Notes: generated by a model not told the origin, from the letters alone. A stretch of 58,345 bases of DNA from an uncultured Candidatus Saccharibacteria bacterium (GCA_964351475.1 CAYGOB010000002.1:1-58345), one strand, 5' to 3'; shown: positions 1 through 22,684, counted from the stretch's first letter. Numbers and translations: made by a program.

Positions 1-677
1 CCAATACAGTGGTCTTCTACATGTATCCAGTCTCTTACTTGTTTACCATCACCATATACTGGTATTTCTTGATTCATTATGGCTCTTGTTATGGCTAATG
101 GTATTAATTTCTCTGGATATTGGTATGGTCCATAGTTGTTAGAGCAGTTAGATATTGTTACAGGTAGTTTGTGTGTAGCGTGGTAGGCTCTTACTAAATG
201 GTCTGATCCTGCTTTAGAGGCAGAGTATACACTTCTAGGGTCATATACCATATCTTCATGGAATTTTGCTTTAGGGTTATTTAATGGTAGTTCTCCAAAT
301 ACTTCGTCTGTAGATATATGATGGAATCTAATGCCTCCGTGTTTAAGTGCCGCTTCTAGTAGTACTAGTGTACCTTGTACATTTGTTTTTACAAATTCTT
401 CGGGTCCTTCTATGCTTCTGTCTACATGGGATTCTGCAGCGAAGTGTACAATAAGGTCTTTCCCTTTTACTAGTTTATCTACTAATTTTTTGTTACATAT
501 GTTTCCTTTTACAAATGTGTATCTTTTGTTTTTTTCAATGTCTTTTAGATTATTTAAATTTCCTGCGTATGTTAGTTTGTCTAGGTTAGTTATTTTATCT
601 TTGGGGTATTTTTTAAGCCAGTATTTAACAAAGTTTGAGCCTATGAAGCCTGCTCCACCTGTTACTAGGATTTTCAT
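1..677 (-). CDS. rfbB: dTDP-glucose 4,6-dehydratase, N-terminal ~225 aa only (C-terminus lies beyond the left window edge)
   Basis: Not in the ORF track because there is no stop in the window. The reverse complement from ATG (comp. 675-677) reads MKILVTGGAGFIGSNFVKYWLKKYP... (Rossmann GxxGxxG). It runs in frame to ...DWIHVEDHCIG at the window edge, the conserved RfbB/RmlB pattern. Track ORF 331..702(+) is its antisense shadow. Confidence 0.9.
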   Translation of the reverse strand, partial: MKILVTGGAGFIGSNFVKYWLKKYPKDKITNLDKLTYAGNLNNLKDIEKNKRYTFVKGNICNKKLVDKLVKGKDLIVHFAAESHVDRSIEGPEEFVKTNVQGTLVLLEAALKHGGIRFHHISTDEVFGELPLNNPKAKFHEDMVYDPRSVYSASKAGSDHLVRAYHATHKLPVTISNCSNNYGPYQYPEKLIPLAITRAIMNQEIPVYGDGKQVRDWIHVEDHCI

Positions 678-751
678 GTATTTTTATATATTAAAAATTT
701 AATATGTTACTATGGGTAGTTTACAGTATTTGGGGGAGTTACGAAAGGCTC

Positions 752-1333
752 TCATTTTTTATGCTTATGGACCTTTAAGAAAGGATTGTCGTATATATCT
801 AAATCTATTATACCCACCTCTATATCCTTCATCTTTTCAAGAACAAGCGGTAGGGTTAGTTGATCTCGATAACTATACTGACTTATCAACGCCCACCAAT
901 ACTGATTTAGATTCGAGAAGTTGATTTCTGAATTCCTGTACATAACTCCAGTTGCAAAGACAGGAACTTTAGTTACATCTTTTCCAACATCCTTATATAA
1001 TTCTCTTATTTTCTGAACTTCTAAGTTATTTATATAGCCACTCTTTTGACATAACCTTAATTCATCCTCTATCGTATCATGAAAAGGATGCTTAAAGATA
1101 CAAAAATCAGCTTGTAATAATGATTTAAAGCCTTCTAGATCTAAAACCTCTACACTTGCATCTAACCAAAGATCAAAACCCTCTGGATTCAATACTTTGT
1201 ACAACCTAGCTTTTAATCTATCTGAAAAATTTCCCATACACCCAGAATATGGATTATAGCCCTCATCATAACGAATATTTGCAGAAAAATGTAAATTGTC
1301 GTACTCTCCAAAACACGCTGTATATGTTATCAT
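752..1333 (-). CDS. DUF616 / TOD1-MUCI70-like putative glycosyltransferase
   Basis: 193 aa. FGEYDNL near the N-terminus and WWALISQYSYRDQLTLP near the C-terminus resemble the DUF616 signature (Ww...RDQlSf) as I recall it. Located next to rfbB. Confidence 0.5.
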   Translation of the reverse strand: MITYTACFGEYDNLHFSANIRYDEGYNPYSGCMGNFSDRLKARLYKVLNPEGFDLWLDASVEVLDLEGFKSLLQADFCIFKHPFHDTIEDELRLCQKSGYINNLEVQKIRELYKDVGKDVTKVPVFATGVMYRNSEINFSNLNQYWWALISQYSYRDQLTLPLVLEKMKDIEVGIIDLDIYDNPFLKVHKHKK

Positions 1334-1416
1334 TCTATATATGATATTATCTCTTCAGTAATTTTACAATCTTAAAAGGGTTTTAACCAAGAAAGGTAAG
1401 AAATAAAATACTGTAA

Positions 1417-4206
1417 TTGCATCTTATTTTAGTTTTAAATTCTTTAATCTTGAAAAGTAAAAACGAGCAAAATTGGAAATTCTACGAACCTAAATTTGAA
1501 TTCTCAAAAAACTTACCTGTTGCCAAATCTGCCTGGAGCGGGCACTATCTCTTTGCATATGACCTGGTAGCGAATACAAAACCCCGTCTTGTCGTAGAGC
1601 TTGGAACACATAAAGGTAACTCTTTCTTTTCTTTTGCACAAGCAATAAAAGACCTAGAGCTTAAAACAGAACTACACGCTGTAGACACATGGGAAGGAGA
1701 CAAACATGCAGGATTCTACAAAGAAAAAGTGTACGAAAAGTTTTTAGATATTAAAGAAGAGTATTACAAGAATGTTCGGATTATTCCTCACAAGATGTTT
1801 TTTGATGAAGCTGTTGAAAAGTTTGAAGACAACAGCATAGATCTTTTACACATAGATGGACTACATACATACGAAGCTGTTAAACATGACTTTGAGACAT
1901 GGTTACCTAAAGTAAATACGAAAAGAGGTATTGTTCTTTTTCATGATATTTATGAGAAAGCAGATGATTTTGGTGTATATAAATTGTGGGAAGAAGTCAA
2001 AAAGAATTACACAACGATATCTTTTGAACATTCTCACGGATTAGGAGTTCTGCTTGTCAACAAAGATTACAAACTTCCTTCACATAAAATTGTAGAAACT
2101 CTTCTTGGGTATTACAACAATTTTTCTAAACTACAAGATTTAGAAAAGGAGATTCTTGACAAAGAGAAACATATTAAAAACTTGGAGGAGGAAAATCGAC
2201 AAAGAATAAACTCGTATCAAAAGCTGAATAAGGAAAATACTACCCTACAAGAGAAAAACCTCTTTTTAAGAGAGGAGAAGGAAATTCTCAAAAAAGAAGC
2301 CACTGAATTCCGTGTATTTAAACAAACTAAAATTTGGAAATGGCTAACTACGTATAGGAAAATTAAAAAGTATACAAAAAACTTTTTTATCAATATCTAC
2401 AAAGATGGTCCCATAAGAACTTTTAAAAGAATATTTCAAAGGATAGGCAAGATTATTAAATATCGAAGGCAAAAAAGAATAGATCAAAACAGATACAAGT
2501 ACTGGGTTAAAAATAACAAAATAACTAAAACCAGAAGAAAAAAAATAAAAGAGAAAACCAAGAACCTCTCATACAAACCTTTTATAAGTATAATAATGCC
2601 TGTATACAATGTAGAAGTTAGATGGATAAAAGAAGCCGTTAAATCAGTTAAAGATCAAATATATACAAATTGGGAGTTATGTATAGCAGATGATGCATCA
2701 ACAAACCCCCAATTGATTAAATATTTAGAAGATATTTCCAAAGATCCACGGATAAAAGTTGTATTTCGAGAAGAAAATGGACACATATCAGAAGCCTCAA
2801 ACTCTGCTCTTGAGCTAGCCACTGGAGAGTTTGTGGCCCTAATGGATAATGATGACATAATATATCCCCATGCTCTTGCAGAGGTTGTTAAGGTGTTAAA
2901 TGATAAAAAAGATACAGATTTTATATACTCTGATGAAGACAAGTTGAATATGAAAGGAGAAAGAGTAGAACCTTTTTTCAAACCCGATTGGTCTCCTGAT
3001 CTATTTCTTTCTACCAATTACATCTGTCACTTCTCTGTGATTAAGAAAGATATAGTGGATAAAGTTGGTGGTTTTAGAAAGGGATATGAAGGCTCTCAAG
3101 ATTATGATCTTTTCTTAAGAGTAACAGAGGAAACAGATAAAATTGAGCATATTCCAGATATACTCTACTCTTGGAGAAAAATCCCTGGGTCAACTGCTGC
3201 AGTATATGGAGATAAAAGCTATGCAAATAAAGCATCAATACAATCTTTGGAAGATGCAATAAAAAGAAGAGGTTTAGACGCTACCGTAGAGAAAGGTCTA
3301 TTCCCTGGTTCGTTTAGAGTTAAATATAAAATAAAAGAGAGTCCCTTAGTTAGTATTTTAATCCCTACCTTAGATAAGTATAAATATCTTGAGAGATGCA
3401 TATCATCTATATTTGAAAAAACTACATATGAAAACTTTGAAGTTATAATCATTGATACAGGTAGTACAGAGAAAGAAACTTTAGATTATTACAAAACCCT
3501 AGAAGGCAACTCTAAAATTAAATTCCTATCTTGGGAAAAGAAATTTAATTATTCAGCAGTAAATAATTACGGTGTAAAACATTCTAAAGGGGAGTACATC
3601 TTACTATTAAACAACGACACCGAAATCATTACCCCTGATTGGATAGAAGGTATGTTAGAACACGCACAAAGAGAAAAAATCGGAGCTGTGGGAGTTAAAC
3701 TCTACTATCCAAACAACACTATACAACACGCTGGTGTTGTTTTAGGTATAGGGGGACCTTCAAAAGAGGAAAGTATAGCTGCTCATGTTATGAGAACATA
3801 CCCTAAAGATATAATGGGAATTCCTTTCGCAACAAAGGATATAATCAGAAATTATTCTGCTGTTACTGCAGCTTGTCTAATGGTAAATAAAGAAAAATAC
3901 TTAGAGGTTTCTGGTCTAGATGAGAATTTTAGAATCGCCTTCAACGATATAGATTTCTGTTTAGAATTAAAGAAAAAAGGATATTGCAACTTGTATACTC
4001 CGTATGTTGAGCTGTACCATCACGAATCTGTATCAGTAGGTAAACCTGAGGAGAAATCAAGGGATATGAGAGAACTAGAGAGAGAAGTTCGGCTAATGAA
4101 GGACAAATGGATAGAACTTATTCATAATGATCCTTTTTATAATGAGAATCTTTGCTGGGAAGAAACAGATTTCAGTATTAAAACCCTTCTAGACAAGAAA
4201 GCTTAG
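1417..4206 (+). CDS. Multidomain enzyme: class I SAM methyltransferase - coiled coil - basic linker - GT2 - GT2 (WsaE-like architecture)
   Basis: 929 aa. MTase motifs are LVVELGTHKGNS, HIDGLHTYEAV and VLFHDI. A K/E/L heptad-like stretch lies at aa ~235-300. First GT2: ISIIMPVYNVE...DDAS...DNDD. Second GT2: VSILIPTLDK...IIIDTGS...NNDTE. No ATG occurs in the first 125 codons. The ORF opens with TTG right after TAA at 1414-1416, and a second TTG lies at 1450. Confidence 0.85.
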   Translation: MHLILVLNSLILKSKNEQNWKFYEPKFEFSKNLPVAKSAWSGHYLFAYDLVANTKPRLVVELGTHKGNSFFSFAQAIKDLELKTELHAVDTWEGDKHAGFYKEKVYEKFLDIKEEYYKNVRIIPHKMFFDEAVEKFEDNSIDLLHIDGLHTYEAVKHDFETWLPKVNTKRGIVLFHDIYEKADDFGVYKLWEEVKKNYTTISFEHSHGLGVLLVNKDYKLPSHKIVETLLGYYNNFSKLQDLEKEILDKEKHIKNLEEENRQRINSYQKLNKENTTLQEKNLFLREEKEILKKEATEFRVFKQTKIWKWLTTYRKIKKYTKNFFINIYKDGPIRTFKRIFQRIGKIIKYRRQKRIDQNRYKYWVKNNKITKTRRKKIKEKTKNLSYKPFISIIMPVYNVEVRWIKEAVKSVKDQIYTNWELCIADDASTNPQLIKYLEDISKDPRIKVVFREENGHISEASNSALELATGEFVALMDNDDIIYPHALAEVVKVLNDKKDTDFIYSDEDKLNMKGERVEPFFKPDWSPDLFLSTNYICHFSVIKKDIVDKVGGFRKGYEGSQDYDLFLRVTEETDKIEHIPDILYSWRKIPGSTAAVYGDKSYANKASIQSLEDAIKRRGLDATVEKGLFPGSFRVKYKIKESPLVSILIPTLDKYKYLERCISSIFEKTTYENFEVIIIDTGSTEKETLDYYKTLEGNSKIKFLSWEKKFNYSAVNNYGVKHSKGEYILLLNNDTEIITPDWIEGMLEHAQREKIGAVGVKLYYPNNTIQHAGVVLGIGGPSKEESIAAHVMRTYPKDIMGIPFATKDIIRNYSAVTAACLMVNKEKYLEVSGLDENFRIAFNDIDFCLELKKKGYCNLYTPYVELYHHESVSVGKPEEKSRDMRELEREVRLMKDKWIELIHNDPFYNENLCWEETDFSIKTLLDKKA

Positions 4207-4234
4207 AACGCAAAATTGATACAGAGATTTATTC

Positions 4235-5587
4235 CTAAACAGCTGCAAACCAAGTGTCTGTTAGGTTAGAGAAAAAGAAAGGTATACACCCATAAAAGAA
4301 AAATATTATCAACATAAAAATTATTATCCCTCTTAACCACTTGTTCTTCATCTCCACCAGATACCGAATCATAAGAAGATAGATAATTGGTAATACTGGA
4401 AACAAGTATCTCCCCTGCAAGGCCAAATCAAAAACATTATATCGAAAATACGTTCTAAAATTTTGATAAACTAACAATACAAACAAATAAAATAACACCA
4501 TTATAATAATATTGTTTTCCAAAAAATCCTTCTTGCTCCACTTTCTAAATATATTTACAACTAAAATAAGAGATAATAAAAAATATAGGTTTACAAGATA
4601 TCTATCCATAAGCATTCTTTGATGCCCAAAGATTCCATATACTCTCTTAATCATTTGCATACTCCAATTAAAAAGATATTCCACAGGTGTAACTCTAGCA
4701 TCTAATATCTCAACAAATTCTGGGTAAGTAGAAAAGGTAGCTCTCCCGAAATCTTTATCACGAGCATAAACTGCATTCTTTAAACAGTCTTCTGTATCCA
4801 ATATTCTGTCACACTGAACTTGCACTTGCCCGTACCTAACCATATTTCCTCCATACAGCGTAATTCCCAAACCAACAACAATAAAACTAATGAATAGAAG
4901 TATTTTATATTTCGAAAAAACTTCTTTAACAACAACCTTGAGTTTACTTTTTCTAATTATAAAAACAGGAAGTAATATCAACTGTATAAATATGACTGGA
5001 AAGACACTAAATTTCGTCATTATTGCAAGAACTTGGAAAATAAGTAGATACAACAAAAACAAGCTTCTCTCTGTCTTAAAATATTTAATAAAGAAGTATA
5101 TAGTTAAAAATATGAATAAATTCGAAAGATTGTCATAATTAACACTCGCAGAAAGAAATGCAAACATCAAGGTATTTGCAAAAAGGAAAGGAGGTAAAAG
5201 ATTGTAGAATTTCTTATTAATTACTTCTTTGGATATAAAATAAATTACTATTAAACCTAGGATAGATTGAAAAAGATTAAAGACTCTTAGAATCTTAAAA
5301 TCTTGAAAACCTGTTATGTTTAAATTAATCAACCTCGCGTTCAACCAAAAACTAAGATATGGGATTCTAGTTATATCTCCAAATCTATGAGTTTCTTCGG
5401 AATTCTCTGGAATTAATAAAGTTTCTGAGTAGAAAGTAGATACATTTATGTGATAGTTTTCATCAGGTGCAGTCCCTCGCCTGATATTAGACAATATATA
5501 CAGACCGAAAAGAAGAAAGATTAATAATATAATGGATAGAAGAACTGTTTCTACATTAAATAAATTTTTTATCTTTAATTTAGACAT
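4235..5587 (-). CDS. Polytopic GT-C-like membrane protein (DUF2142-like, PDExxH loop motif)
   Basis: 450 aa with >=10 hydrophobic segments. APDENYH follows the first TM segment, an acidic first-loop motif typical of GT-C glycosyltransferases. Its start overlaps the upstream gene's stop by 8 nt. Confidence 0.55.
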   Translation of the reverse strand: MSKLKIKNLFNVETVLLSIILLIFLLFGLYILSNIRRGTAPDENYHINVSTFYSETLLIPENSEETHRFGDITRIPYLSFWLNARLINLNITGFQDFKILRVFNLFQSILGLIVIYFISKEVINKKFYNLLPPFLFANTLMFAFLSASVNYDNLSNLFIFLTIYFFIKYFKTERSLFLLYLLIFQVLAIMTKFSVFPVIFIQLILLPVFIIRKSKLKVVVKEVFSKYKILLFISFIVVGLGITLYGGNMVRYGQVQVQCDRILDTEDCLKNAVYARDKDFGRATFSTYPEFVEILDARVTPVEYLFNWSMQMIKRVYGIFGHQRMLMDRYLVNLYFLLSLILVVNIFRKWSKKDFLENNIIIMVLFYLFVLLVYQNFRTYFRYNVFDLALQGRYLFPVLPIIYLLMIRYLVEMKNKWLRGIIIFMLIIFFFYGCIPFFFSNLTDTWFAAV

Positions 5588-6530
5588 CTTCTTTCTTCAA
5601 GAATTTTAAAAATATATATAATACTAAAACCCAAAAGACCATGACTACAAGCCCTACTCCCCTATCAAGCAAAGCCAACTGCATCACCTGTTCATTAGTA
5701 ATACCTAGTATATCAGATGTTATTACAAATATACCTTCCCTTATTCCCAAAGATCCGGGTGTTAAGCTAACTAGCAAAGAAACACCTGACAAACAGGAAT
5801 AAAGTATAACACTCACAAGATTAGTATTTATCCCTAATGCTTGAAATTGCAAATAAAATAACAATACTGAAAATATGAACCCTAAAATTGTTATCATTAA
5901 TAAGGATATTAATAACTTCTTATCTTTTAATATAATGTTCCATCCATTAAGAATGTTTTTAATAATATTTACAACCCTATTAACAAATTTGTATTTTCCC
6001 TCTCTTATCTTTTCAACAGGGAATTTAACTACACTAAGAACAATCATAGAAACAAATAACATCCCAAAGAAAGCATAAAGCGGTAAAGATAGAACGCTTG
6101 TTCTTGACTGAATCAAAAATAAAACAATTAACGCTATGAGGGAATTAACTAAAAAAACAATAATATAATTACCATACAAAGAAGATATAAAATGAGAAAA
6201 TGGAAATTTAAATTTCTTCTTAAGATACACTGATTTATATATCAATCCTCCTCTCATAGGCAAGAAATAATTTGCTAAAGAGGATACTACTGCTAAATAC
6301 GAAGCTTCTGATATATAAATATTTTTCTTAAATGATTTAAGTATTATTTTAATAAAGACTCCATTCAAAAATAATACCCCTGTATTAATTATAAATATTG
6401 GAATCAAGTATTTAGGTGAGGTAGACAATACATGTACGAAATCATCCCTGTTATTAATAAAGTAATATATAAAAAAAACTAATACTACAATTGTTATAAA
6501 GATTTTTACATATTCTCCAAGTTTTTTCAT
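5580..6530 (-). CDS. Lysylphosphatidylglycerol-synthase-TM-region / UPF0104 flippase-like membrane protein
   Basis: 316 aa, ~8 TM segments. The C-terminal LTPGSLGIREG motif is characteristic of the LPG_synthase_TM family. It has a 4-nt overlap with the GT2 upstream and an 8-nt overlap with the GT-C downstream. Confidence 0.6.
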   Translation of the reverse strand: MKKLGEYVKIFITIVVLVFFIYYFINNRDDFVHVLSTSPKYLIPIFIINTGVLFLNGVFIKIILKSFKKNIYISEASYLAVVSSLANYFLPMRGGLIYKSVYLKKKFKFPFSHFISSLYGNYIIVFLVNSLIALIVLFLIQSRTSVLSLPLYAFFGMLFVSMIVLSVVKFPVEKIREGKYKFVNRVVNIIKNILNGWNIILKDKKLLISLLMITILGFIFSVLLFYLQFQALGINTNLVSVILYSCLSGVSLLVSLTPGSLGIREGIFVITSDILGITNEQVMQLALLDRGVGLVVMVFWVLVLYIFLKFLKKEDV

Positions 6531-7513
6531 TTATTTTTCTTAAAAAGTAATCTAAAGACACCTTTGTACACTCCTGTACCAAAAGATAAAAGAACCAACG
6601 GACCAATAAGTATAACTGCTATAAAATCAATAAGAGAGAAACTTTTTATTAGTATTAAGTATATAAAAGCAAGTAAAAACATAAAAGAACAAACATATAA
6701 TAACCAGTCCCAAAGGAATACTATTAAAAACAGAAGAAGCAGAGGAAGAAAAAGGATAGCAGGTATAATCAAAAAATATTTTCTTTTCGAATCTTTATAA
6801 TAATCTACAAAACGAGGGCCTCTTTGATAAGTATGATAAAAAAAATCACCAAATTCATTTCTTTCACTATAATAAACTCGAACTTTAGAATTTTTGAGTA
6901 TAGTTACTCCATTTTTTACCATATTCGAGAAGATTAGAGTATCATCACTAACCCACTTTCCAGTATCCTTTGGTAATGATTTTAAAAATCTTTCTTTTTT
7001 ACAAAAAAACGGAGAGAATCCTTTTGGGATGATGTCAAAATTACTCTTATCAATATAAACATCTGGATATTCATATCCCCAATATTTTCCATAGAGAATT
7101 TTCCTAAAAACAAAAAAGAACCTGTTAATTAAGCTACCCTTCCTGTTCTGATAAGGATTACCTACAATAGGTTCATATCCCCTTTCTTTTATTACTTTTA
7201 ATATATCTGTATCAGCTATACATCTGTGATCAATGAATAAAAGATTTTCATATTTCGCATTCTTTACTCCTTCTAATCTGGCTTCTATTCTTCCTTTATT
7301 AACATCAAAATCTATTATCTTGATGTCAACACCCTCCTCCCTAAATCTTACTAAGAACTCTTCCATAATCTCCCTTGAATCATCAGTTGAACAGTCATTA
7401 ACCACAACTAATTCATAATCTGATTTCGGATACTCTATATTAAGGATAGCCTCTAAGCACTCATTTAATGTCTCCTCCCCATTGTAAACAGGAAGTACTA
7501 TTGATATTTTCAT
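6527..7513 (-). CDS. GT2 glycosyltransferase with C-terminal TM segments
   Basis: MKISIVLPVYNGEETL...VVVNDCSTDDS plus a hydrophobic C-terminal ~90 aa. Confidence 0.85.
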   Translation of the reverse strand: MKISIVLPVYNGEETLNECLEAILNIEYPKSDYELVVVNDCSTDDSREIMEEFLVRFREEGVDIKIIDFDVNKGRIEARLEGVKNAKYENLLFIDHRCIADTDILKVIKERGYEPIVGNPYQNRKGSLINRFFFVFRKILYGKYWGYEYPDVYIDKSNFDIIPKGFSPFFCKKERFLKSLPKDTGKWVSDDTLIFSNMVKNGVTILKNSKVRVYYSERNEFGDFFYHTYQRGPRFVDYYKDSKRKYFLIIPAILFLPLLLLFLIVFLWDWLLYVCSFMFLLAFIYLILIKSFSLIDFIAVILIGPLVLLSFGTGVYKGVFRLLFKKNK

Positions 7514-15133: not shown

Positions 15134-17095
15134 TTATTCACAACCTACTATTTCAAAGAGTATAGAATCTCCACTTCGAAATACCGGTTTGAAAGCTGTA
15201 GTTGTAAGAATGTTATCATCACTAAGAAGAGGATTATGAAAAGGCTGCATTGCAGCATGATAGTAATATGTATATCCTAGATCTATAAATTTCTGCCTAT
15301 ATGTACAATCTTCTATATCTTCTCGCAAAGCAAGATAATATTTAAAATTTCGAAGAGTTTCCTTGCTGTCATATTCATAAAAGGGCTTAGATATCTTTCT
15401 ACCAGTAAAGACTTCTATATACCCTCCTGAATCAGAAGAGAATATTATGTCATACAACAAATATGCATTTATTAGAAATTTTTGTTCCTCTGTCGTATTC
15501 CTTTCTATCCAATCAAATACTACAATGTCATCTTCTAAAACATAACTATTCAAGTCAGACATAAATCCTTTACTCTGTTGAAAAAGCATATAGGAGACCA
15601 AAAGAATTCCAGAGATAAACATTCCTATAATTATATAGTCCCATTTGTTTTTATCTAAAAATTTTCTAACTAAGAGACTGTATAATTTGGATAAGAAAAA
15701 CCCACACAGTACATATATATATATTAGTAATGTTATTAAATAACTCTCAAAGACTATAGTTAACATCGACATTCTTAATGTCGAAAGAATTATCATAAAA
15801 AGTAGAACTCCAACAATCCAGAAAAAAACTACCATTAATCTCTTGTTTTTCTTTAAAAGAGAATTAACAAATAGAAGAGGAAGAGCAAGAAACGAAATTA
15901 AAGTGGGATACCTGTTCCAGTCCTTTAGACTTCTCTGAAGATATGTTCTTATGTGTTCAAATAGATATAAAATTCCTTCCCATATCGTTTCGAAATCACT
16001 ACGATAACCTACACTAGTTCTATCAGGATTAACCAAGTTCTCAGCTATTGCTAGTTGATACTTGTAACTCCTCAAAGCCCAACCTAGACCAAATAACATA
16101 CCTAACACAATCAAAAACCCTTTCCATTTAAAATCTTTAAAATACAAAATAAATACAACTCCTACAAAAACACTTCCTATTACTGCAATAGGATAATGTG
16201 TTAAAAACAACGAAGCTATAGCCAATCCTGAAATTAATAACACCTTCCAATGCTTATTTTCAATATATTGAGTTATTGCAAACATAACAAAGAAAAGAAC
16301 AGGAATTGCCATTATTAGTGTATTCTTCCCTGCATTAAAAGTTAACATAGCAGGGTAATACCCAACTGAGAACAAAACAGCCGTAACTAAACCCCATACT
16401 TTATCTTTTAGAAAATTCTTTAAAAATACATATGCTACTATTCCTGAATAAGCACTAAAGAAGCCACTCAAGACCAGAACCTGCCTGGAGACAACAAAGC
16501 CTCTCATCATAGCCCCAAATGCTGAAATAACATGTAAGCCCGGAGAATAAAAATATTCTATTAACCCTGTTTCCATGATATTTCTAGCCATCATCGAATG
16601 TGAAAGAGGGTCATGTAGAGGAGCTATATAGTGGTTTCTCAATGGAAAAACCTTCGCAACCAATGCTACAGAAAAAAGAAGCAGTACTAAATAGTCATAA
16701 TCCTTTATCTTTAGATTTATATTCTCAAAAACTTTAGCTTTTAAAAAAACAAAAAAGGATATAGCAACAAAACCCAAAAAGAAAAATATATTAACAGGAA
16801 TATTTACAATAGCAAACAAAGAGATAAATACTAAAAACAGAGATGTAAAAACTACTCCACCTAAAAGAAAATGCTCTAAAAGATTTACACTCTTCTTAAA
16901 GAAAAACATACTCCACCCAAAACCTAATAACCCCCAAACAATGTAAATAGACCATTGATATCCAAGAAACAGTGTAATTACAGAAATAGCAAATAGAGAA
17001 AAATATACTATCCTAAACTTTTTTCTATTCTCGAACAAAGATTTAATAAAAGGTAATACTTTTTTAACTTCCTGTTCTAATTCTAAAGTCTTCAT
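15134..17095 (-). CDS. Large polytopic membrane protein with C-terminal soluble domain (GT-C-like, possible ligase or polymerase)
   Basis: 653 aa with >=12 TM segments, the loop motif PLHDPLSHS, and a ~150-aa non-hydrophobic C-terminus. Last gene of the wzm-wzt operon. Its start overlaps the upstream stop by 32 nt. Confidence 0.5.
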   Translation of the reverse strand: MKTLELEQEVKKVLPFIKSLFENRKKFRIVYFSLFAISVITLFLGYQWSIYIVWGLLGFGWSMFFFKKSVNLLEHFLLGGVVFTSLFLVFISLFAIVNIPVNIFFFLGFVAISFFVFLKAKVFENINLKIKDYDYLVLLLFSVALVAKVFPLRNHYIAPLHDPLSHSMMARNIMETGLIEYFYSPGLHVISAFGAMMRGFVVSRQVLVLSGFFSAYSGIVAYVFLKNFLKDKVWGLVTAVLFSVGYYPAMLTFNAGKNTLIMAIPVLFFVMFAITQYIENKHWKVLLISGLAIASLFLTHYPIAVIGSVFVGVVFILYFKDFKWKGFLIVLGMLFGLGWALRSYKYQLAIAENLVNPDRTSVGYRSDFETIWEGILYLFEHIRTYLQRSLKDWNRYPTLISFLALPLLFVNSLLKKNKRLMVVFFWIVGVLLFMIILSTLRMSMLTIVFESYLITLLIYIYVLCGFFLSKLYSLLVRKFLDKNKWDYIIIGMFISGILLVSYMLFQQSKGFMSDLNSYVLEDDIVVFDWIERNTTEEQKFLINAYLLYDIIFSSDSGGYIEVFTGRKISKPFYEYDSKETLRNFKYYLALREDIEDCTYRQKFIDLGYTYYYHAAMQPFHNPLLSDDNILTTTAFKPVFRSGDSILFEIVGCE

Positions 17096-18974
17096 GTTTT
17101 TTAGATAAATTAATATTATAAAAAGGATCTCTATTTATATATCCTGGCCATTTATTTTTTAGAATCTGACTACATTTCTGATCTCCTTGAGGATCACTAA
17201 CCTGGTTCTTCTTTAATCTAGAAACAGACTCGTAATGTATTAATTCAGAGTATGGAGTATATACATTGTAATAACCACTATCATAGAGTTTAATACCTAA
17301 GTCCACATCCTGAAATACTGGTTCTAAGCTCTCATCAAAACCACCCATCTCTTTAAAAAGAGAAGTTTTTATCATGGCACAAGCACAAGTAACTGAAATG
17401 TAATTCTTAACATTAACAACAGGGCTATCAAAACCATGAGTATGACCTGAAGCCCTTCTATATGCATGGCCTGCACTATTTCCCAATCCTACAACTACAC
17501 CAGCATGCTGTATACTTCCATCAGGATAGTACAATCTACTCCCTACTAAACCTACCTCTGGTAACTGACATATTTCTAACATACTTTTTAACCATTCTTC
17601 CCCCTGGACTTTAATGTCATTATTAAGCATTAACATATATTCAGAATCTATCTGATTAACAGCCCAGTTATATATCTTTCCAAAATGATATGGTAAGTCA
17701 TATTTAACAACCATTATCCTTTCGTCCTTAGTTATCTCTTCTAAATACCCAAATGTTTTCTCCTCCTTGGATTGATTACCTACAAGTACAATTTCGTAAT
17801 TATCATACTTTGTTTTTTCTAAAATACTTGGTATGGCCCTTTTTAATAATTCAACCTTATCCTTAAAAGGTATAACGATGGATACCTTAGGATTTCCAAC
17901 TATCTCATACCTAACCCTCCATGCTCCCTCATACAAACCTTCTACCACCTCCCCTTTTAAATTTCTTCTCGTCAAATAGTCTTGCAAAACATACTTTTGT
18001 CTATCATATGCCCAACCCTTGGCTTCTTTTCCTGAGTAAGCAGTAGAACTTTCAGTAATTCTCCAATGGTAAAGAATCTTGGGAATATGTATTACATTCT
18101 TAAAATCCCTGTTATTCTTTAATGTCATATACCTAAGTACTAAATCCCAATCCTGAGCTCCATCTGTTCCCTCCCTTAGACTTCCTAACTGTTGAATAAT
18201 ATCTTTCCTATAACAAGTAACATGAGCTGTATACATCTGAGAAGTTAGAAGATGTGGAGAAAAATCTGGCCAAAAAGATGGTGCAAATCTCCTTGCTCTC
18301 TCATCTATCTTGTCAAAATCACTGTACATGAATTCTACTTCAGGATTTTTCTTTATACTCTTAGCTAATTCCAAAAGAGCATTAACAGAAAGTGTGTCAT
18401 CACAATCCATAAATACAATATAATCTCCTGTAGCCATATTAATTGCATTATTACTATTCTTTACAATATTTATTTCCTTTCTTAACTCCTTAGAAAGAAA
18501 AGAAAGTTTAACCTTCTCTGTATACTCCTCTTGAAAACTCTTAAGAAATCTTTCTGTTTCTTCTATACTCTTACTTGATCCATCAGAAATACATATCTCC
18601 CAATTCTCATATACTTGGTTGGTTATCGAATCCAGTGCTTCTCTAAGAAATTCCTCCTTAACATTCCATACTGGTAAAACTATACTGAACTTAATATCTT
18701 CTCCAACACTTTCTAGATCCCTCCTCATTGATTTTTCATTTAGATATTTACTCTCTACATTCTGCATCCATTTGTTATATTGAAAATCTCTAACTCTGCC
18801 AGGATTTATTCTGTTTCTAAAAAAAGAAAATACTCTTTTTAAAAAAAGAAAGATAGCCTTAAAAAAACCATGCCTTTTAATATCCTTGTTAAAATCCTCT
18901 TTGTAGAGAGGTATCCTATCTTTAACTCTTGAAATTAAACTGTTTCTATTCTGCATTTTTGTATGCACTAACAA
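17064..18974 (-). CDS. Tandem GT2-GT2 glycosyltransferase, paralogue of the C-terminal two thirds of 1417..4206
   Basis: FSIVLPVWNVKEE...DCDD and VSIVIPFKDK...NNDI. It shares YSDxDK...FxPxFxPDxSP, the HIPxILYxWR motif and the C-terminal DPFYNxNL with the 929-aa protein. Confidence 0.85.
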   Translation of the reverse strand: MLVHTKMQNRNSLISRVKDRIPLYKEDFNKDIKRHGFFKAIFLFLKRVFSFFRNRINPGRVRDFQYNKWMQNVESKYLNEKSMRRDLESVGEDIKFSIVLPVWNVKEEFLREALDSITNQVYENWEICISDGSSKSIEETERFLKSFQEEYTEKVKLSFLSKELRKEINIVKNSNNAINMATGDYIVFMDCDDTLSVNALLELAKSIKKNPEVEFMYSDFDKIDERARRFAPSFWPDFSPHLLTSQMYTAHVTCYRKDIIQQLGSLREGTDGAQDWDLVLRYMTLKNNRDFKNVIHIPKILYHWRITESSTAYSGKEAKGWAYDRQKYVLQDYLTRRNLKGEVVEGLYEGAWRVRYEIVGNPKVSIVIPFKDKVELLKRAIPSILEKTKYDNYEIVLVGNQSKEEKTFGYLEEITKDERIMVVKYDLPYHFGKIYNWAVNQIDSEYMLMLNNDIKVQGEEWLKSMLEICQLPEVGLVGSRLYYPDGSIQHAGVVVGLGNSAGHAYRRASGHTHGFDSPVVNVKNYISVTCACAMIKTSLFKEMGGFDESLEPVFQDVDLGIKLYDSGYYNVYTPYSELIHYESVSRLKKNQVSDPQGDQKCSQILKNKWPGYINRDPFYNINLSKKHEDFRIRTGS

Positions 18975-19680
18975 CTTTTTCAGGCTCCCCTATCTCATAA
19001 CTCTTATCTTCCTTTAACCATAGTACCCTGTCTGAATACTTCTCTACTGAATCTAATGCATGAGATACATACAGTATAGATTTCTTACCCTTAATCTTGT
19101 CAAAATATGCATAACACTTCCTTTGGAAATCTGCATCACCTACTGCTAATACCTCATCTAAAACAAGTATGTCTGACTTAACTCTAATTGCTATTGAAAA
19201 TGCTAACCTTACTGCCATACCAGAAGAGAAATTCTTTATAGACATATCTGCAAAATCTCTTAACTCTGCAAAATCAAAAATACCATCAATATATTCATCT
19301 AATTCCTTCTTAGTAAGACCAAGTATCGTACCATTAAGATAGACATTTTCTCTTGCACTAAGATCTGGATTAAAACCTACACCTAATTCTAAGAAAGGTA
19401 CTAAATCTCCATTTACTTCTACCTCTCCCTCATCTGCTACATATATCCCAGATACTATCTTTAGTAATGTAGATTTACCTGATCCATTTGGACCTATTAC
19501 ACTAAAAAATTCTCCTTTTTTAACTTCAAAAGAAAGATTTTTAAGAGCATTAAATTCTCTATGTTCTGTCTTTTGAAAAGGATTTAAAAATCTTTCTTGT
19601 AATGTATTCTTATTCCCCTTAACCGGTACTTTAAATTTCTTACTTACATTCTTTACTTGTATTGCTATATTGTTGTCCAT
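18946..19680 (-). CDS. wzt: Polysaccharide/teichoic-acid ABC exporter ATP-binding protein (Wzt/TagH type, NBD only)
   Basis: Walker A GPNGSGKST, signature FSSGMAVRLAFS and Walker B ILVLDE. At 244 aa it has no C-terminal carbohydrate-binding extension. Confidence 0.9.
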   Translation of the reverse strand: MDNNIAIQVKNVSKKFKVPVKGNKNTLQERFLNPFQKTEHREFNALKNLSFEVKKGEFFSVIGPNGSGKSTLLKIVSGIYVADEGEVEVNGDLVPFLELGVGFNPDLSARENVYLNGTILGLTKKELDEYIDGIFDFAELRDFADMSIKNFSSGMAVRLAFSIAIRVKSDILVLDEVLAVGDADFQRKCYAYFDKIKGKKSILYVSHALDSVEKYSDRVLWLKEDKSYEIGEPEKVVSAYKNAE

Positions 19681-19684
19681 ATCT

Positions 19685-20461
19685 TTAAAAATGTTCTGCT
19701 ACTTTTTTTACATTATGTTTGAAATATATATTTCCAATAATTACTAGGATTATGGAAAATATTAAAGATCCTAGTACAAAATCTAAATTAACAATGTTTT
19801 GATATGTAAGAGCTTCTCTTACACTCTGTATGTAGATTGCTATTGGGTTGTACTCTGCTATGAATCTGTATCTTTCAGGAATCATTTCAATTGGGAAGAA
19901 AACTGCTGAAGCATAGAACATTAGTTGTAAACCTAGTTCTGTTATGTGAGTTAGGTCCCTAATATATACCATCCAGATACTGGTAAAGAATGCTATGCCG
20001 TACATAGCTAAGAACATAACTAAACCAATGAGTAATATGTAGGATACTCCTATTACAGAAAACTGGATATCTAAGACTGTCCCTATGACTGCTATTATGA
20101 GGAGATTAATACCAAAATTAATTAATGACATAGTAAGTGCACTAATTACAACAATATCTCTTTTAAAATTAATCTTAAGTATCAGATCTGCTCTTTCCAT
20201 TATTGAACCCATACCCCATGTAATTCCTTCATTAAAGAAGGTATAGATTACTAAACCAGAGAGAAGATATACTGCATATTGCCTAGATGTTAAATTTCCT
20301 ACCTGACCAGATACTGCAGAGAATACTACATAGAGAATTATGAACATGAAGAAGGGTTTGAGTAATACCCAAAAGAACCCTAATAAGGATCCTTTGTATC
20401 TCATCTTAAAGATGGTTTTAACAAATTGCTTGTAGAGGTCTATATCGTTCTTACTTATCAT
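19685..20461 (-). CDS. wzm: ABC-2 type polysaccharide exporter permease (Wzm/TagG type)
   Basis: 258 aa, 6 TM segments, adjacent to wzt. The N-terminus YKGSLLGFFWVLLKP is typical of ABC-2 permeases. Confidence 0.85.
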   Translation of the reverse strand: MISKNDIDLYKQFVKTIFKMRYKGSLLGFFWVLLKPFFMFIILYVVFSAVSGQVGNLTSRQYAVYLLSGLVIYTFFNEGITWGMGSIMERADLILKINFKRDIVVISALTMSLINFGINLLIIAVIGTVLDIQFSVIGVSYILLIGLVMFLAMYGIAFFTSIWMVYIRDLTHITELGLQLMFYASAVFFPIEMIPERYRFIAEYNPIAIYIQSVREALTYQNIVNLDFVLGSLIFSIILVIIGNIYFKHNVKKVAEHF

Positions 20462-21421: not shown

Positions 21422-22684
21422 ATGAATATCAGAGAAATATTTAGAGAGATCTATCCCGTAGATGAATACAAGAAACTTAAGAAAGAAAATCCTTTTCATT
21501 TTTGGTTAACAATATTAATTCCCCTCTCTCTCTTGTTTTTGTTTTTTTATCTATATCTCTATCCTTTTGGATACAGAAAGGAATATACAATTACACAAGA
21601 TAATATTCTAGAAGAGAGAGGAGATCTTTCTTTTTCTCAAGGACAGGGAGAGACTGACGGTCTCTTGCACATAACTGTAGATCCTAAGATAAGGGTGCGA
21701 AATCTGTTTGGAGAGGTAATCGTTAAGGGTGAAGGTGTACATATTTTACATCCTAATATACAAGAAGAAGAAATGTTAGACGTATGGGAATATGAAGTAG
21801 ATAGGTTTCAGATTGAGGGTATCCTCTCAGAAAGAGAACCTACAATCTCTAGAAGTAATGAAGATGAAGAGAAAAAGGCGGATTTTGGGGAATACAAATA
21901 CACTGTATTAGATGAATATGATGTTAAAGATTCTAATACCCTTTCTTTCTATCTTAGATGGGAGGCTTTGACAGAGGAAGCTCTTGTTGGCAATCAGTTA
22001 CTTCTTAAATACCAAAATTTAAGAATAATACAACATCATGAATCAATAGAATTAAGGGTAGATGAAGTCTATGACGGAAATCTTTACACATACCAAATAG
22101 GAGTTTTAACAGAGGAAGAGGAGAATGAATTAATAGCTATATATACCAAACCAGAGAACTCACTAAATGGTTATATTGAATTAGTAGTGAACAATTTAAG
22201 AAGTGGAAGAGTTATTGTAAGTTCTCCTTACAATTTGTTTACAGATTATGATGACCTTCGACAGTATGAAGAACCTCTTAATGAAGAGTTAGTTAAAGAT
22301 TTAAATCAAGAAAAAATATCCTTAGGGCAAGAATTGTATAGAGTAAATATAGAGAACTCTTTTCCAGAAGATCTTGTATCTGCCATTAATTTAGATGTTT
22401 ATTATACTGAGAAGTACAAGACTCCCTTGTTAAGAGAAAAGGAGAAGTCCTCTCCTCTAACATTATCAGAGTATTATCCTAAAGTATTTTACAATTACTT
22501 CAGAGGAAATATTTATGAATTAAGAGTGGGTTATGAGTATCCTTTTGAAAAGATACAAGAACACAGTAGGTTCTATGGCCATACTCCTTTTACATTTCCA
22601 ATAGCAGGACAAACAGAGGATATAGAGGAGATAACTTTTATAACAACTAGAGACCCTATATGGAGAAAGTTAAAGAGTTTGTAA
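21422..22684 (+). CDS. N-terminally anchored extracytoplasmic protein of unknown function (possibly beta-sandwich/LamG-like)
   Basis: 420 aa, one TM (FHFWLTILIPLSLLFLFFYLYLY), then an acidic beta-rich region. Overlaps the next GT-C gene by 25 nt. Confidence 0.5.
   Translation: MNIREIFREIYPVDEYKKLKKENPFHFWLTILIPLSLLFLFFYLYLYPFGYRKEYTITQDNILEERGDLSFSQGQGETDGLLHITVDPKIRVRNLFGEVIVKGEGVHILHPNIQEEEMLDVWEYEVDRFQIEGILSEREPTISRSNEDEEKKADFGEYKYTVLDEYDVKDSNTLSFYLRWEALTEEALVGNQLLLKYQNLRIIQHHESIELRVDEVYDGNLYTYQIGVLTEEEENELIAIYTKPENSLNGYIELVVNNLRSGRVIVSSPYNLFTDYDDLRQYEEPLNEELVKDLNQEKISLGQELYRVNIENSFPEDLVSAINLDVYYTEKYKTPLLREKEKSSPLTLSEYYPKVFYNYFRGNIYELRVGYEYPFEKIQEHSRFYGHTPFTFPIAGQTEDIEEITFITTRDPIWRKLKSL

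What the first reader, a model, noticed from the sequence alone, without database searches (positions are those of the whole stretch)
1417..4206. Methyltransferase / coiled-coil / GT2 / GT2 fusion: candidate glycan polymerase-terminator with a built-in ruler, using a non-ATG start
One 929-aa ORF strings together four parts. The first is a class I SAM-MTase (LVVELGTHKGNS, HIDGLHTYEAV, VLFHDI). The second is a ~65-aa K/E/L heptad-like segment at nt ~2119-2316 (LQDLEKEILDKEKHIKNLEEENRQRINSYQKLNKENTTLQEKNLFLREEKEILKKEATEF). The third is an ~85-aa extremely basic K/R linker at nt ~2317-2571. The fourth is two complete GT2 domains. An N-terminal MTase plus two rhamnosyltransferase domains is the architecture of WsaE, which elongates the Geobacillus stearothermophilus S-layer poly-rhamnan and caps it by O-methylation. 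Coiled-coil rulers that set chain length are known from WbdD and WbbB in ABC-transporter-dependent O-antigen pathways. Here all three ideas appear in one polypeptide. It sits two genes from rfbB (dTDP-rhamnose pathway) in a locus that has wzm/wzt. The frame opens directly after a TAA with TTG (1417; next TTG at 1450) and has no ATG for 125 codons, so it must use a non-canonical start.
Basis: partly seen in the sequence, partly recalled or inferred. Interest (0 to 1): 0.72.

Follow-up and report, generated by a model that had tools for sequence, protein, structure and literature searches.

The report
Methyl-capping rhamnan polymerase with coiled-coil spacer
This is a real gene from a Candidatus Dojkabacteria bacterium that fuses a sugar O-methyltransferase, a coiled-coil spacer about 12 nm long and two glycosyltransferase domains; it most likely builds a cell-surface rhamnose polymer and caps it, a design already described in Enterococcus, Klebsiella and Geobacillus.

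Summary
One uninterrupted ORF (1417-4206, +) encodes a Methyltransf_24 O-methyltransferase, an 80-residue continuous helix with a single heptad register, a very basic helical segment and two GT2 (GT-A) domains. There is no ATG before codon 127. Alignment with orthologues places the start at TTG 1450 rather than TTG 1417.

The polymerase-terminator reading is supported by homology, structure prediction and context:
- The MTase model is closest to the sugar O-methyltransferase MeT1.
- The GT2-GT2 half is 47% identical to E. faecalis EpaO and 37% identical to EpaN.
- A second, MTase-less copy of the GT2-GT2 module sits beside wzt/wzm, mirroring the EpaN/EpaO pair.
- Orthologous loci carry rmlBACD.
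- Close relatives swap the N-terminal module (GT99, sulfotransferase, other MTases) at one fixed junction.
- Coiled-coil length varies between orthologues mostly in steps of seven residues.

The idea is not new. Klebsiella O7 ORF6, WbbB, WsaE and EpaN already combine these elements, and the MTase plus coiled-coil cassette has thousands of relatives.

Two corrections apply. The "basic linker" is a conserved part of the polymerase module and holds a strong amphipathic helix. The Wzt here has no carbohydrate-binding domain, so one hallmark of capped-glycan systems is missing.

Verdict: a new member of a known kind, of modest interest.

The parts
1450..4206 (+). Gene for the MTase / coiled-coil / GT2 / GT2 protein (918 aa from the preferred TTG start; stop TAG at 4204-4206)
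   Evidence: ORF shown. Start placed by alignment with orthologues and by their ATG starts at the homologous position. Full-length orthologues of about 880-930 aa, 59-71% identical, occur in Candidatus Dojkabacteria.
1417..1449 (+). In-frame 11-codon extension up to the first TTG after the TAA stop; an alternative, less likely start
   Evidence: No orthologue aligns to these residues. The window barely uses Shine-Dalgarno sites (4 of 44 genes), so a ribosome-binding site cannot decide between the two starts.
1450..2064 (+). N-terminal class I, cation-dependent-type O-methyltransferase domain (Pfam Methyltransf_24 core at nt 1594-1950)
   Evidence: Pfam E 1.5e-26. The AF2 model of aa 12-308 has pLDDT 90. 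Best PDB fold matches are M. hassiacum MeT1 (6g80/6g7d, E 2e-10), then Mg-dependent O-methyltransferases. A profile search of PDB sequences finds 6g7d (E 1e-4) and CmcI. The motifs VELGTHKGNS, HIDGLHT and HD are invariant in the family.
2083..2322 (+). Coiled-coil spacer: one 80-residue helix (aa 223-302 in ORF numbering), about 12 nm if straight
   Evidence: AF2 single helix. Single heptad register with 5 of 10,000 shuffles reaching the score. Length varies among orthologues while the flanks stay fixed, and 7 of 11 distinct lengths fall in one mod-7 class.
2323..2571 (+). Basic helical segment (36% K+R, net +27) that forms the N-terminal part of the polymerase module
   Evidence: Composition. 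Predicted helices. Fixed length (55 + 28 aa) in orthologues. Aligns to the N-terminus of the stand-alone 636-aa paralogue.
2410..2463 (+). Cationic amphipathic helix PIRTFKRIFQRIGKIIKY (aa 332-349); candidate in-plane membrane anchor
   Evidence: Hydrophobic moment 0.86, the maximum for the protein (mean 0.24, sd 0.13); net charge +6. The membrane-anchor role is inferred.
2572..3336 (+). First GT2 (GT-A) glycosyltransferase domain, with the DNDD motif
   Evidence: Pfam PF00535 at aa 391-550. PDB sequence match to K4CP (E 2.5e-29). Fold matches to PmHS2 and K4CP. Invariant D477, D479 and D480.
3337..4203 (+). Second GT2 (GT-A) glycosyltransferase domain
   Evidence: Pfam PF00535, PF10111 and PF13641 at aa 645-870. 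Weak TIGR01556 rhamnosyltransferase hit, 35 bits against a cutoff of 200. The two GT2 domains together are 47% identical to E. faecalis EpaO over 583 aa.
1..677 (-). rfbB/rmlB (dTDP-glucose 4,6-dehydratase); 5' part only, because the gene runs off the window
   Evidence: Six-frame translation. 75% identical to RmlB of the orthologous locus L001. Orthologous loci carry rmlB-A-C-D at this position.
752..1333 (-). Divergently transcribed neighbour, TOD1/MUCI70-like (putative glycosyltransferase-like) protein of 193 aa
   Evidence: Weak Pfam hit, E 3.2e-4 and below the cutoff. A 43%-identical copy sits at the same position in L001.
17064..18974 (-). Paralogous stand-alone polymerase module (basic segment + GT2 + GT2, 636-aa ORF; true start probably the ATG at codon 7); EpaO-like
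   Evidence: 34% identical to aa 304-912 of the fusion protein (918-aa numbering from TTG 1450) over 626 aa. 38% identical to EpaO. Two GT2 domains by Pfam. Lies next to wzt in the window and in L002 and L005.
18946..19680 (-). Wzt-type ABC ATPase, 244 aa, nucleotide-binding domain only
   Evidence: Pfam finds ABC_tran only and no Wzt_C. The orthologue in L002 is also 243 aa.
19685..20461 (-). Wzm-type ABC-2 permease
   Evidence: Pfam ABC2_membrane, E 3.9e-13.

Best explanation
The gene encodes a peripheral-membrane enzyme with two activities in an ABC-transporter-dependent glycan pathway of a Candidatus Dojkabacteria (CPR) bacterium.

Proposed mechanism:
- The C-terminal module (basic helical segment plus two GT-A/GT2 domains) extends a lipid-linked polymer on the cytoplasmic face of the membrane. 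The polymer is most likely an alpha-1,2/alpha-1,3 rhamnan.
- The cationic amphipathic helix at aa 332-349 probably holds this module at the membrane.
- The 80-residue coiled coil projects the N-terminal Mg-dependent-type O-methyltransferase about 12 nm away from the polymerase.
- Only chains that have grown long enough therefore reach the methyltransferase. It O-methylates the non-reducing terminal sugar and stops extension.
- The paralogous 636-aa GT2-GT2 protein next to wzt/wzm supplies extension without capping, as proposed for EpaO alongside EpaN.
- Wzm/Wzt then exports the finished chain.

What is shown here: the domain identities, the predicted folds, the heptad helix, the gene context and the homologies. 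What is inferred: the donor sugar, the capping step, length control by the coiled coil and the membrane anchoring.
For: Domains and folds:
- Pfam finds Methyltransf_24 and two GT2 domains.
- AF2 gives pLDDT 89 for the protein modelled from TTG 1450 and 90 for its N-terminal 297 residues, with a single 80-residue helix between the MTase and the rest.
- The MTase fold is closest to MeT1, the sugar O-methyltransferase of mycobacterial methylmannose polysaccharide, followed by Mg-dependent O-methyltransferases.
- The GT half is closest to the dual GT-A polymerases PmHS2 and K4CP (E about 1e-22); single-domain matches include the rhamnosyltransferase RmlT.

Coiled coil:
- A single heptad register; 5 of 10,000 shuffles reach the score.
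- Among 24 Dojkabacteria orthologues the coiled-coil segment ranges from 43 to 114 aa, while the flanking segments stay at 19-24, 55 and 28 aa.
- 7 of the 11 distinct lengths are congruent mod 7 (p about 0.002).
- Two relatives show tandem heptad duplications: KEHNDLE x6 in the MTase-bearing orthologue P0022, and IEIEKNK x3 in P0031, a relative of the GT2-GT2 module with a different N-terminal domain.

Module swapping:
- Relatives 57-75% identical in the GT2-GT2 part carry a different domain upstream of a coiled coil, joined at the same point (...FKQTKIWK...KNFFIN).
- These domains are GT99 (the WbbB beta-Kdo terminator family), a sulfotransferase, Methyltransf_23/11, or an unknown domain.

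Context:
- rfbB lies two genes away.
- Orthologous loci have rmlB-A-C-D beside the gene, and a dual GT2 gene plus wzt downstream.
- Wzm/Wzt lie within 10 kb of most distant homologues.

Homology to the enterococcal rhamnan machinery:
- 47% identity to EpaO and 37% to EpaN.
- EpaN is proposed to add the terminal Rha and the 3-O-methyl cap that was observed by NMR.

Precedents:
- Klebsiella O7 ORF6 was shown experimentally to be both terminator and polymerase.
- The WsaE MTase domain methylates rhamnose in vitro.
Against: - Wzt is 244 aa and has no Wzt_C/CBM. In the prototypes, and in E. faecalis EpaM (Wzt_C, 48 bits), a CBM reads the cap. The Opitutales homologue's Wzt has only a weak Wzt_C hit. 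Export here is therefore either not gated by the cap, or the reader domain lies somewhere I did not find.
- There are no data on the native glycan.
- The island holds at least four other methyltransferase genes, so methylation could be internal rather than terminal.
- The monomer AF2 model cannot show that the helix forms a coiled-coil oligomer, and no standard coiled-coil predictor was available.
- Donor specificity cannot be read from GT2 sequence; the rhamnosyltransferase TIGRFAM hit is far below its cutoff.
- rmlA, rmlC and rmlD are outside the window.
- wzm/wzt are about 15 kb away with many glycosyltransferase genes in between, so pairing them with this gene rests on synteny.
Confidence: 0.6

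Rival explanations
1. The protein is a polymerase, and its MTase decorates internal residues of every repeat unit (as in O-methylated rhamnans or polymethylated polysaccharides) instead of capping the chain. The coiled coil serves only to dimerise or trimerise the enzyme.
For: The closest structural relative, MeT1, belongs to a pathway that makes heavily methylated polysaccharide. The island has several other MTase genes, which suggests a much-methylated product. Wzt has no cap-reading CBM. [quoted passage not shown]
Against: An enzyme that modifies each repeat gains nothing from being held about 12 nm from the polymerase active sites. The same position is occupied in close relatives by GT99, a dedicated chain-terminating beta-Kdo transferase family, and by a sulfotransferase. 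The MTase-less paralogue matches the EpaN/EpaO division into terminator and extender. Coiled-coil length changes in heptad steps between orthologues while everything else is fixed.
Confidence: 0.2
2. The architecture is as described, but the polymer is not a rhamnan. The two GT2 domains use other nucleotide sugars, for example UDP-hexoses, UDP-ManNAc or uronic acids made by the epimerase and dehydrogenase genes nearby.
For: GT2 donor specificity cannot be read from sequence. The best fold matches are glycosaminoglycan polymerases. A UDP-GlcNAc 2-epimerase gene and a UDP-sugar dehydrogenase gene lie within 10 kb. Only rfbB is inside the window.
Against: The GT2-GT2 part is 47% identical to EpaO of the enterococcal rhamnan locus. 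The rml genes lie directly beside the gene in the orthologous loci L001, L002 and L005, and beside it in Opitutales, Rhizobiales, Acetobacterium and Bifidobacterium homologues.
Confidence: 0.15
3. The region yields two separate products: an MTase-plus-coiled-coil protein and a GT2-GT2 protein that starts at the internal ATG (M394). This would match the 536-aa protein found in public databases.
For: A 536-aa product identical to the C-terminal part is on record (P0024). Stand-alone MTase-plus-coiled-coil proteins of 350 aa or less, and stand-alone GT2-GT2 proteins, both exist in other genomes.
Against: P0024 comes from three short contigs that simply begin at window position 2586-2588, so it is truncated by the contig end. 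The reading frame is unbroken. More than 20 orthologues are single proteins of about 880-930 aa.
Confidence: 0.03

Closest known systems
Enterococcus faecalis EpaN / EpaO with EpaL/EpaM (enterococcal polysaccharide antigen rhamnan backbone)
   Same: The pair has the same organisation. EpaN is an N-terminal MTase plus two rhamnosyltransferase-like GT2 domains and is the proposed terminator that adds the O-methyl cap. EpaO is an MTase-less paralogue and the proposed extender. Both sit beside Wzm/Wzt. Sequence homology is direct: 47% identity to EpaO over 583 aa and 37% to EpaN over 522 aa.
   Different: The EpaN MTase belongs to Methyltransf_23, not Methyltransf_24. Its spacer is about 400 aa, contains non-helical domains and has only short heptad stretches. 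EpaM carries a Wzt_C CBM, whereas the window's Wzt does not. The roles of EpaN and EpaO are themselves proposals, not demonstrated activities.
Klebsiella pneumoniae O7 ORF6 (PMC11231755)
   Same: A single polypeptide with an N-terminal methyltransferase, a central coiled coil and two C-terminal GT2 rhamnosyltransferase modules. It was shown experimentally to polymerise and to terminate, in an ABC-transporter-dependent pathway with rml genes.
   Different: ORF6 is 1414 aa and has an extra kinase domain and an Ig-like CBM. It makes a methyl-phosphate cap. Its MTase resembles CgnL. The window protein has an MTase only, so it would make a plain O-methyl cap, and that MTase is of the MeT1/CmcI type.
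WsaE of Geobacillus stearothermophilus NRS 2004/3a (S-layer glycan)
   Same: An N-terminal 2-O-methyltransferase plus two rhamnosyltransferase domains (alpha-1,2 and alpha-1,3). Its gene overlaps wzm/wzt, with rmlABCD in the cluster.
   Different: [quoted passage not shown] Sequence similarity was not tested here.
WbbB (Klebsiella O12 / Raoultella terrigena)
   Same: Terminator, coiled-coil ruler and two polymerising GT modules in one protein. A close Dojkabacteria relative of the window's GT2-GT2 module carries the WbbB-type GT99 domain in place of the MTase.
   Different: In WbbB the terminator is a beta-Kdo transferase, not an MTase.
WbdD / WbdA (E. coli O9a/O8, Klebsiella O3/O5)
   Same: A methyltransferase-type terminator at the far end of a coiled-coil ruler, with an amphipathic helix at the membrane-proximal end.
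   Different: WbdD is a separate protein from the polymerase WbdA, which it recruits. Its amphipathic helix is C-terminal. The polymerase domains are mannosyltransferases, not GT2 enzymes. The cognate Wzt has a CBM.

Membership tests
Capped-glycan ABC-transporter-dependent systems (Whitfield prototypes; census of Mann et al. 2019, cited in PMC11231755) | Wzm/Wzt ABC-2 transporter encoded in the locus | tested here: met
   wzt at 18946-19680 and wzm at 19685-20461. The same arrangement is found in orthologous loci L002 and L005.
Capped-glycan ABC-transporter-dependent systems (Whitfield prototypes; census of Mann et al. 2019, cited in PMC11231755) | A chain-terminating enzyme domain (methyltransferase, kinase, Kdo transferase and similar) | tested here: inconclusive
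   An O-methyltransferase domain is present, with intact motifs and a MeT1-like fold. Terminating activity is only inferred.
Capped-glycan ABC-transporter-dependent systems (Whitfield prototypes; census of Mann et al. 2019, cited in PMC11231755) | An extended coiled coil next to the terminator domain, with the terminator at the end far from the polymerase | tested here: met
   An 80-residue single helix with one heptad register lies between the MTase and the polymerase module. Oligomeric state was not tested.
Capped-glycan ABC-transporter-dependent systems (Whitfield prototypes; census of Mann et al. 2019, cited in PMC11231755) | A carbohydrate-binding module on Wzt (Wzt_C) that recognises the cap | tested here: not met
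   The window's Wzt is 244 aa and matches ABC_tran only. The L002 orthologue is 243 aa. By contrast, EpaM has Wzt_C at 48 bits and the Opitutales Wzt (399 aa) has a weak Wzt_C hit.
Capped-glycan ABC-transporter-dependent systems (Whitfield prototypes; census of Mann et al. 2019, cited in PMC11231755) | The native glycan carries a non-reducing terminal cap and has a modal chain length | not testable with these tools
   This needs NMR or MS of the glycan. The organism is uncultured.
EpaN/EpaO-type rhamnan polymerase modules | Sequence homology across both GT2 domains | tested here: met
   47% identity over 583 aa to EpaO and 37% over 522 aa to EpaN.
EpaN/EpaO-type rhamnan polymerase modules | A pair made of an MTase-bearing copy and an MTase-less copy, next to the ABC transporter | tested here: met
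   The fusion gene at 1450-4206 and the 636-aa paralogue at 17064-18974 beside wzt.
EpaN/EpaO-type rhamnan polymerase modules | The same methyltransferase family as EpaN | tested here: not met
   EpaN has Methyltransf_23. The window protein has Methyltransf_24.
EpaN/EpaO-type rhamnan polymerase modules | Use of dTDP-L-rhamnose as donor | not testable with these tools
   Support comes from context only: rfbB in the window, and rmlBACD in orthologous loci.
WsaE | N-terminal MTase followed by two rhamnosyltransferase domains | tested here: inconclusive
   The domain order matches the published description. Rhamnosyltransferase activity is not shown here.
WsaE | Sequence homology to WsaE | not tested
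   The WsaE sequence could not be retrieved with the tools.
Pfam Methyltransf_24 / cation-dependent class I O-methyltransferases | Profile match above the gathering score, Rossmann-type MTase fold, glycine-rich SAM loop and acidic/His metal motifs | tested here: met
   93.8 bits against a cutoff of 26.3. Fold matches to MeT1 and to COMT/CCoAOMT-type enzymes. ELGTHKGNS, HIDGLHT and HD are invariant and align to the corresponding MeT1 motifs.
Dual GT-A (GT2) polymerases such as K4CP and PmHS2 | Two tandem GT-A domains in one chain, with DxD-type motifs | tested here: met
   Two PF00535 stretches. Foldseek E about 1e-22 to 8viw and 2z86 across both domains. Invariant DNDD in the first domain and NND in the second.

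The most novel reading that the evidence does not exclude
Dojkabacteria may carry a stripped-down variant of the capped-glycan machinery. In this variant the coiled-coil ruler alone sets chain length, and export by a CBM-less Wzt does not depend on reading the cap. The ruler and the cap chemistry would be evolutionarily tunable: length changes in heptad steps, partly through 21-bp tandem duplications, and terminator cassettes (methyl, sulfate, Kdo) are exchanged at one fixed junction. If so, the orthologue series with 43-114-residue spacers would be a ready-made natural test of the molecular-ruler hypothesis, in a phylum whose surface glycans are unknown.
Probability: 0.25. Interest if true: 0.5.

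Novelty: new member of a known kind. Interest (0 to 1): 0.3.

Why it matters
The finding shows that the chain-length-controlled, ABC-transporter-dependent route to surface glycans extends into the Candidate Phyla Radiation. This route is best known from enterobacterial O antigens, enterococcal rhamnan and Geobacillus S-layer glycans. The Dojkabacteria version is compact. The set of orthologues could also serve specialists as a natural allelic series for testing how coiled-coil length sets glycan length. The spacers differ mostly by whole heptads, the cap modules are interchangeable and the transporter lacks a cap reader. None of this changes current understanding of the mechanism.

Tried and rejected
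- Shine-Dalgarno analysis could not choose between TTG 1417 and TTG 1450, because only 4 of 44 genes in the window have an SD-like core.
- Promoter and terminator scans of 1250-4400 gave no more sites than shuffled sequence.
- I looked for a 21-bp tandem repeat in the window's own coiled-coil region and found none. Such repeats occur only in the relatives P0022 and P0031.
- I looked for a separate cap-binding module among the unannotated neighbours. The proteins at 15134-17095 and 22660-24630 are polytopic membrane proteins. The protein at 21422-22684 has a single N-terminal TM segment. None of the three has a Pfam match.
- The 536-aa database protein (P0024) looked like evidence for a separate GT2-GT2 product, but it is a contig-end truncation.
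- I could not obtain Williams et al. 2017 or Mann et al. 2019, nor the WsaE and Klebsiella O7 ORF6 sequences. Direct homology to those proteins is therefore untested.
- No standard coiled-coil predictor (COILS, Marcoil, DeepCoil) was installed. I used a heptad-register shuffle test and AF2 secondary structure in its place.
- A first mod-7 test that included relatives with non-MTase N-termini was only marginal (p about 0.05). Restricting it to true orthologues gave p about 0.002. Because the sequences are phylogenetically related, this value is approximate.


Full report
**Observation**

The window has an uninterrupted ORF at 1417-4206 on the + strand. It is 929 codons long, is preceded by TAA and ends in TAG.

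Pfam finds Methyltransf_24 at aa 60-178 (E 1.5e-26) and two Glycos_transf_2 domains, at aa 391-550 and about 645-870 (E 2.6e-52). NCBIfam gives only generic GT2 matches below their cutoffs, including a weak rhamnosyltransferase TIGR01556 hit on the second domain.

The first ATG is codon 127 and the first GTG is codon 105. The only earlier TTG codons are codons 1 and 12. The four-part description and the non-ATG start are therefore correct.

**Start codon**

In an alignment with 25 full-length homologues, no sequence covers the first 11 residues. The orthologues begin 7-10 residues before the conserved Trp (W20). In two orthologous loci the gene starts with ATG at that position. The homologous codon in the window is TTG 1450, giving a protein of 918 aa.

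This genome hardly uses Shine-Dalgarno sites (4 of 44 genes), so a ribosome-binding site cannot settle the question.

**Organism**

The best hits are 59-71% identical, cover 97-98% of the query and are 879-928 aa long. Those that carry a name come from Candidatus Dojkabacteria (WS6, CPR). The window is 32% G+C.

**Methyltransferase**

A profile of the N-terminal domain finds M. hassiacum MeT1 (6g7d, E 1e-4) and CmcI among solved structures. The alignment covers the SAM loop (VELGTHKGNS against VEIGTYCGKS) and the IDGxH...HD motif.

An AF2 model of aa 12-308 (pLDDT 90) is closest to MeT1 (E 2e-10). MeT1 is a sugar O-methyltransferase of methylmannose polysaccharide synthesis. The next matches are Mg-dependent catechol/CCoA-type O-methyltransferases.

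The residues expected to bind SAM and metal are invariant in the family.

**Coiled coil**

Residues 232-299 follow one continuous heptad register, with a = YLIINYNNKA and d = NLKLRLLLLF. The score is 0.504 against 0.175 +/- 0.072 for shuffles, and 5 of 10,000 shuffles reach it.

Both AF2 models give a single unbroken helix of 80 residues (aa 223-302, nt 2083-2322). That is about 12 nm if straight.

Among 24 Dojkabacteria orthologues this segment ranges from 43 to 114 residues. The neighbouring segments stay at 19-24, 55 and 28 residues. Of the 11 distinct lengths, 7 (51, 58, 65, 72, 79, 86 and 114) fall in one mod-7 class (p about 0.002; approximate because the sequences are related).

Two relatives show the mechanism directly, as tandem heptad duplications. 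They are KEHNDLE x6 in the MTase-bearing orthologue P0022 and IEIEKNK x3 in P0031, a relative of the GT2-GT2 module with a different N-terminal domain.

Length that changes in whole heptads while the register is kept is what one expects of a rigid spacer. It does not by itself prove a ruler.

**The "basic linker"**

Residues 303-385 are 36% K+R with net charge +27. But they are predicted helical, are conserved in sequence and length, and align to the N-terminus of the stand-alone 636-aa GT2-GT2 paralogue.

They therefore belong to the polymerase module. They include the strongest amphipathic helix of the protein, PIRTFKRIFQRIGKIIKY (hydrophobic moment 0.86 against a protein mean of 0.24; net +6).

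I read this helix as a candidate in-plane membrane anchor, analogous to the amphipathic helix of WbdD. That reading is an inference.

**Glycosyltransferase half**

By sequence, the best solved relative is the chondroitin polymerase K4CP (E 2.5e-29). By fold, the best matches are the dual GT-A polymerases PmHS2 and K4CP (E about 1e-22), with single-domain matches that include the L. monocytogenes rhamnosyltransferase RmlT.

A scan of species-representative genomes found the GT2-GT2 module in many phyla. The full four-part architecture also occurs in Opitutales (40-41% identity over aa 25-921) and Rhizobiales.

In E. faecalis the homologous genes are epaN and epaO, directly downstream of epaL/epaM. 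The window protein is 47% identical to EpaO over 583 aa and 37% identical to EpaN.

A 2024 preprint describes EpaN as a methyltransferase plus two rhamnosyltransferase domains. It proposes that EpaN adds the last rhamnose and the 3-O-methyl cap seen by NMR, and that the paralogous EpaO extends the chain.

The window has the same pair. One member is the fusion gene. The other is a 636-aa MTase-less paralogue (34% identical from the basic segment onward) next to wzt/wzm.

**Context**

A partial rfbB lies at 677..1 on the minus strand, with one gene between it and the ORF. In the orthologous loci L001 and L002 the complete rmlB-A-C-D set sits at this position. L002 and L005 also have the dual GT2 paralogue and wzt downstream.

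Across 80 more distant loci, Wzt/Wzm homologues lie within 10 kb in most loci with long flanks, and rml genes in many.

**Module swapping**

Relatives 57-75% identical in the GT2-GT2 part carry a different domain upstream of a coiled coil, joined at the same point (...FKQTKIWK...KNFFIN). The alternatives are:
- GT99, the WbbB beta-Kdo terminator family (P0043);
- a sulfotransferase (P0044);
- Methyltransf_23/11 (P0108, P0101);
- an unknown domain (P0041, P0031).

Conversely, the MTase-plus-coiled-coil cassette has 3196 relatives at E <= 1e-30 among 50%-identity representatives. Of the best 150, 44 are stand-alone proteins of 350 aa or less, 44 are fused to GT2 modules and 62 are fused to other domains. 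This is the behaviour of a mobile terminator cassette.

**What argues against the full model**

- The Wzt here is 244 aa and has no Wzt_C domain. EpaM has one, and the Opitutales neighbour (399 aa) has a weak one.
- I found no detached cap-binding module.
- The island has several other methyltransferase genes.
- Donor specificity, oligomeric state and capping are all untested.

**Comparison with known systems**

The combination of terminator, coiled-coil ruler and polymerase in one polypeptide is established for WbbB. For Klebsiella O7 ORF6 the order is MTase, kinase, CBM, coiled coil, then two GT2 rhamnosyltransferase modules. The paper describing ORF6 calls the strategy widespread and cites a 2019 census.

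The window protein is therefore a new, compact member of a known kind. It differs in four ways: the MTase family (MeT1/CmcI type), the absence of kinase and CBM domains, a short spacer, and a CBM-less transporter.

**Verdict**

Novelty is a new member of a known kind. Interest is 0.3.

Noticed in passing
window 2586-2588 (loci L083, L084, L085): Three independent public assemblies hold sequence 100% identical to the window, and all three break at the same point, just upstream of the first GT2 domain. This explains the 536-aa 'protein' in databases. The cause could be strain-level variation in the upstream cassette or the A-rich, low-complexity basic region.
   Followed up: partly
proteins P0022 and P0031 (relatives of the window gene): The coiled-coil segments contain perfect or near-perfect tandem heptad repeats (KEHNDLE x6 in the MTase-bearing orthologue P0022; IEIEKNK x3 in P0031, which has a different N-terminal domain). 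This suggests that spacer length evolves by 21-bp tandem duplication. No such repeat occurs in the window's own gene.
   Followed up: partly
window 4235-7513 (-): Three adjacent genes encode a PMT_2 (GT-C-like) membrane protein, an LPG_synthase_TM protein and a GT2. This looks like a three-component extracytoplasmic glycosylation system that uses a polyprenyl-phosphate sugar. It lies convergent with the gene under study, and similar genes are present in orthologous locus L001.
   Followed up: no
window 15134-17095 (-) and 22660-24630 (+): Two proteins of about 650 aa, each with 11-12 predicted transmembrane segments and a soluble C-terminal part, have no Pfam match. The positional counterpart in L002 carries DUF7657/DUF7654. 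They may be GT-C-like transferases or ligases for the finished glycan.
   Followed up: partly
window 1-39500: The whole first 39 kb is one glycan-biosynthesis island. It holds at least 12 GT2/GT1 genes and five methyltransferase genes. It also holds a UDP-GlcNAc 2-epimerase, a UDP-sugar dehydrogenase and an NAD-dependent epimerase/dehydratase-family gene. A second, MsbA/PglK-like ABC exporter lies at 28814-30640. No initiating phosphoglycosyltransferase was seen among the proteins I scanned.
   Followed up: partly
window, 44 of the ORFs of 150 aa or more: Only 4 of 44 genes have a Shine-Dalgarno-like core 7-16 nt upstream of the start; the leaders are A/T-rich instead. Among ORFs of 150 aa or more, non-ATG starts are rare: the mechanical list gives TTG for four other ORFs, and for one of them (17064-18974) an ATG at codon 7 is the likelier start. 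That makes the TTG start of the gene under study an outlier.
   Followed up: partly
window 331-702 (+) and 712-924 (+): The first ORF lies antisense to the partial rfbB gene (677..1, -) and the second antisense to the TOD1-like gene (752-1333, -). The 123-aa product has no family match (the 70-aa one was not scanned), and both are probably spurious.
   Followed up: yes
window 44703-45371 (+) and 41037-41798 (-): A sortase gene and a DsbA-like thioredoxin gene lie downstream of the glycan island. The sortase fits a Gram-positive-type envelope, so the glycan may be attached to the cell wall or to an S-layer protein rather than to LPS.
   Followed up: no
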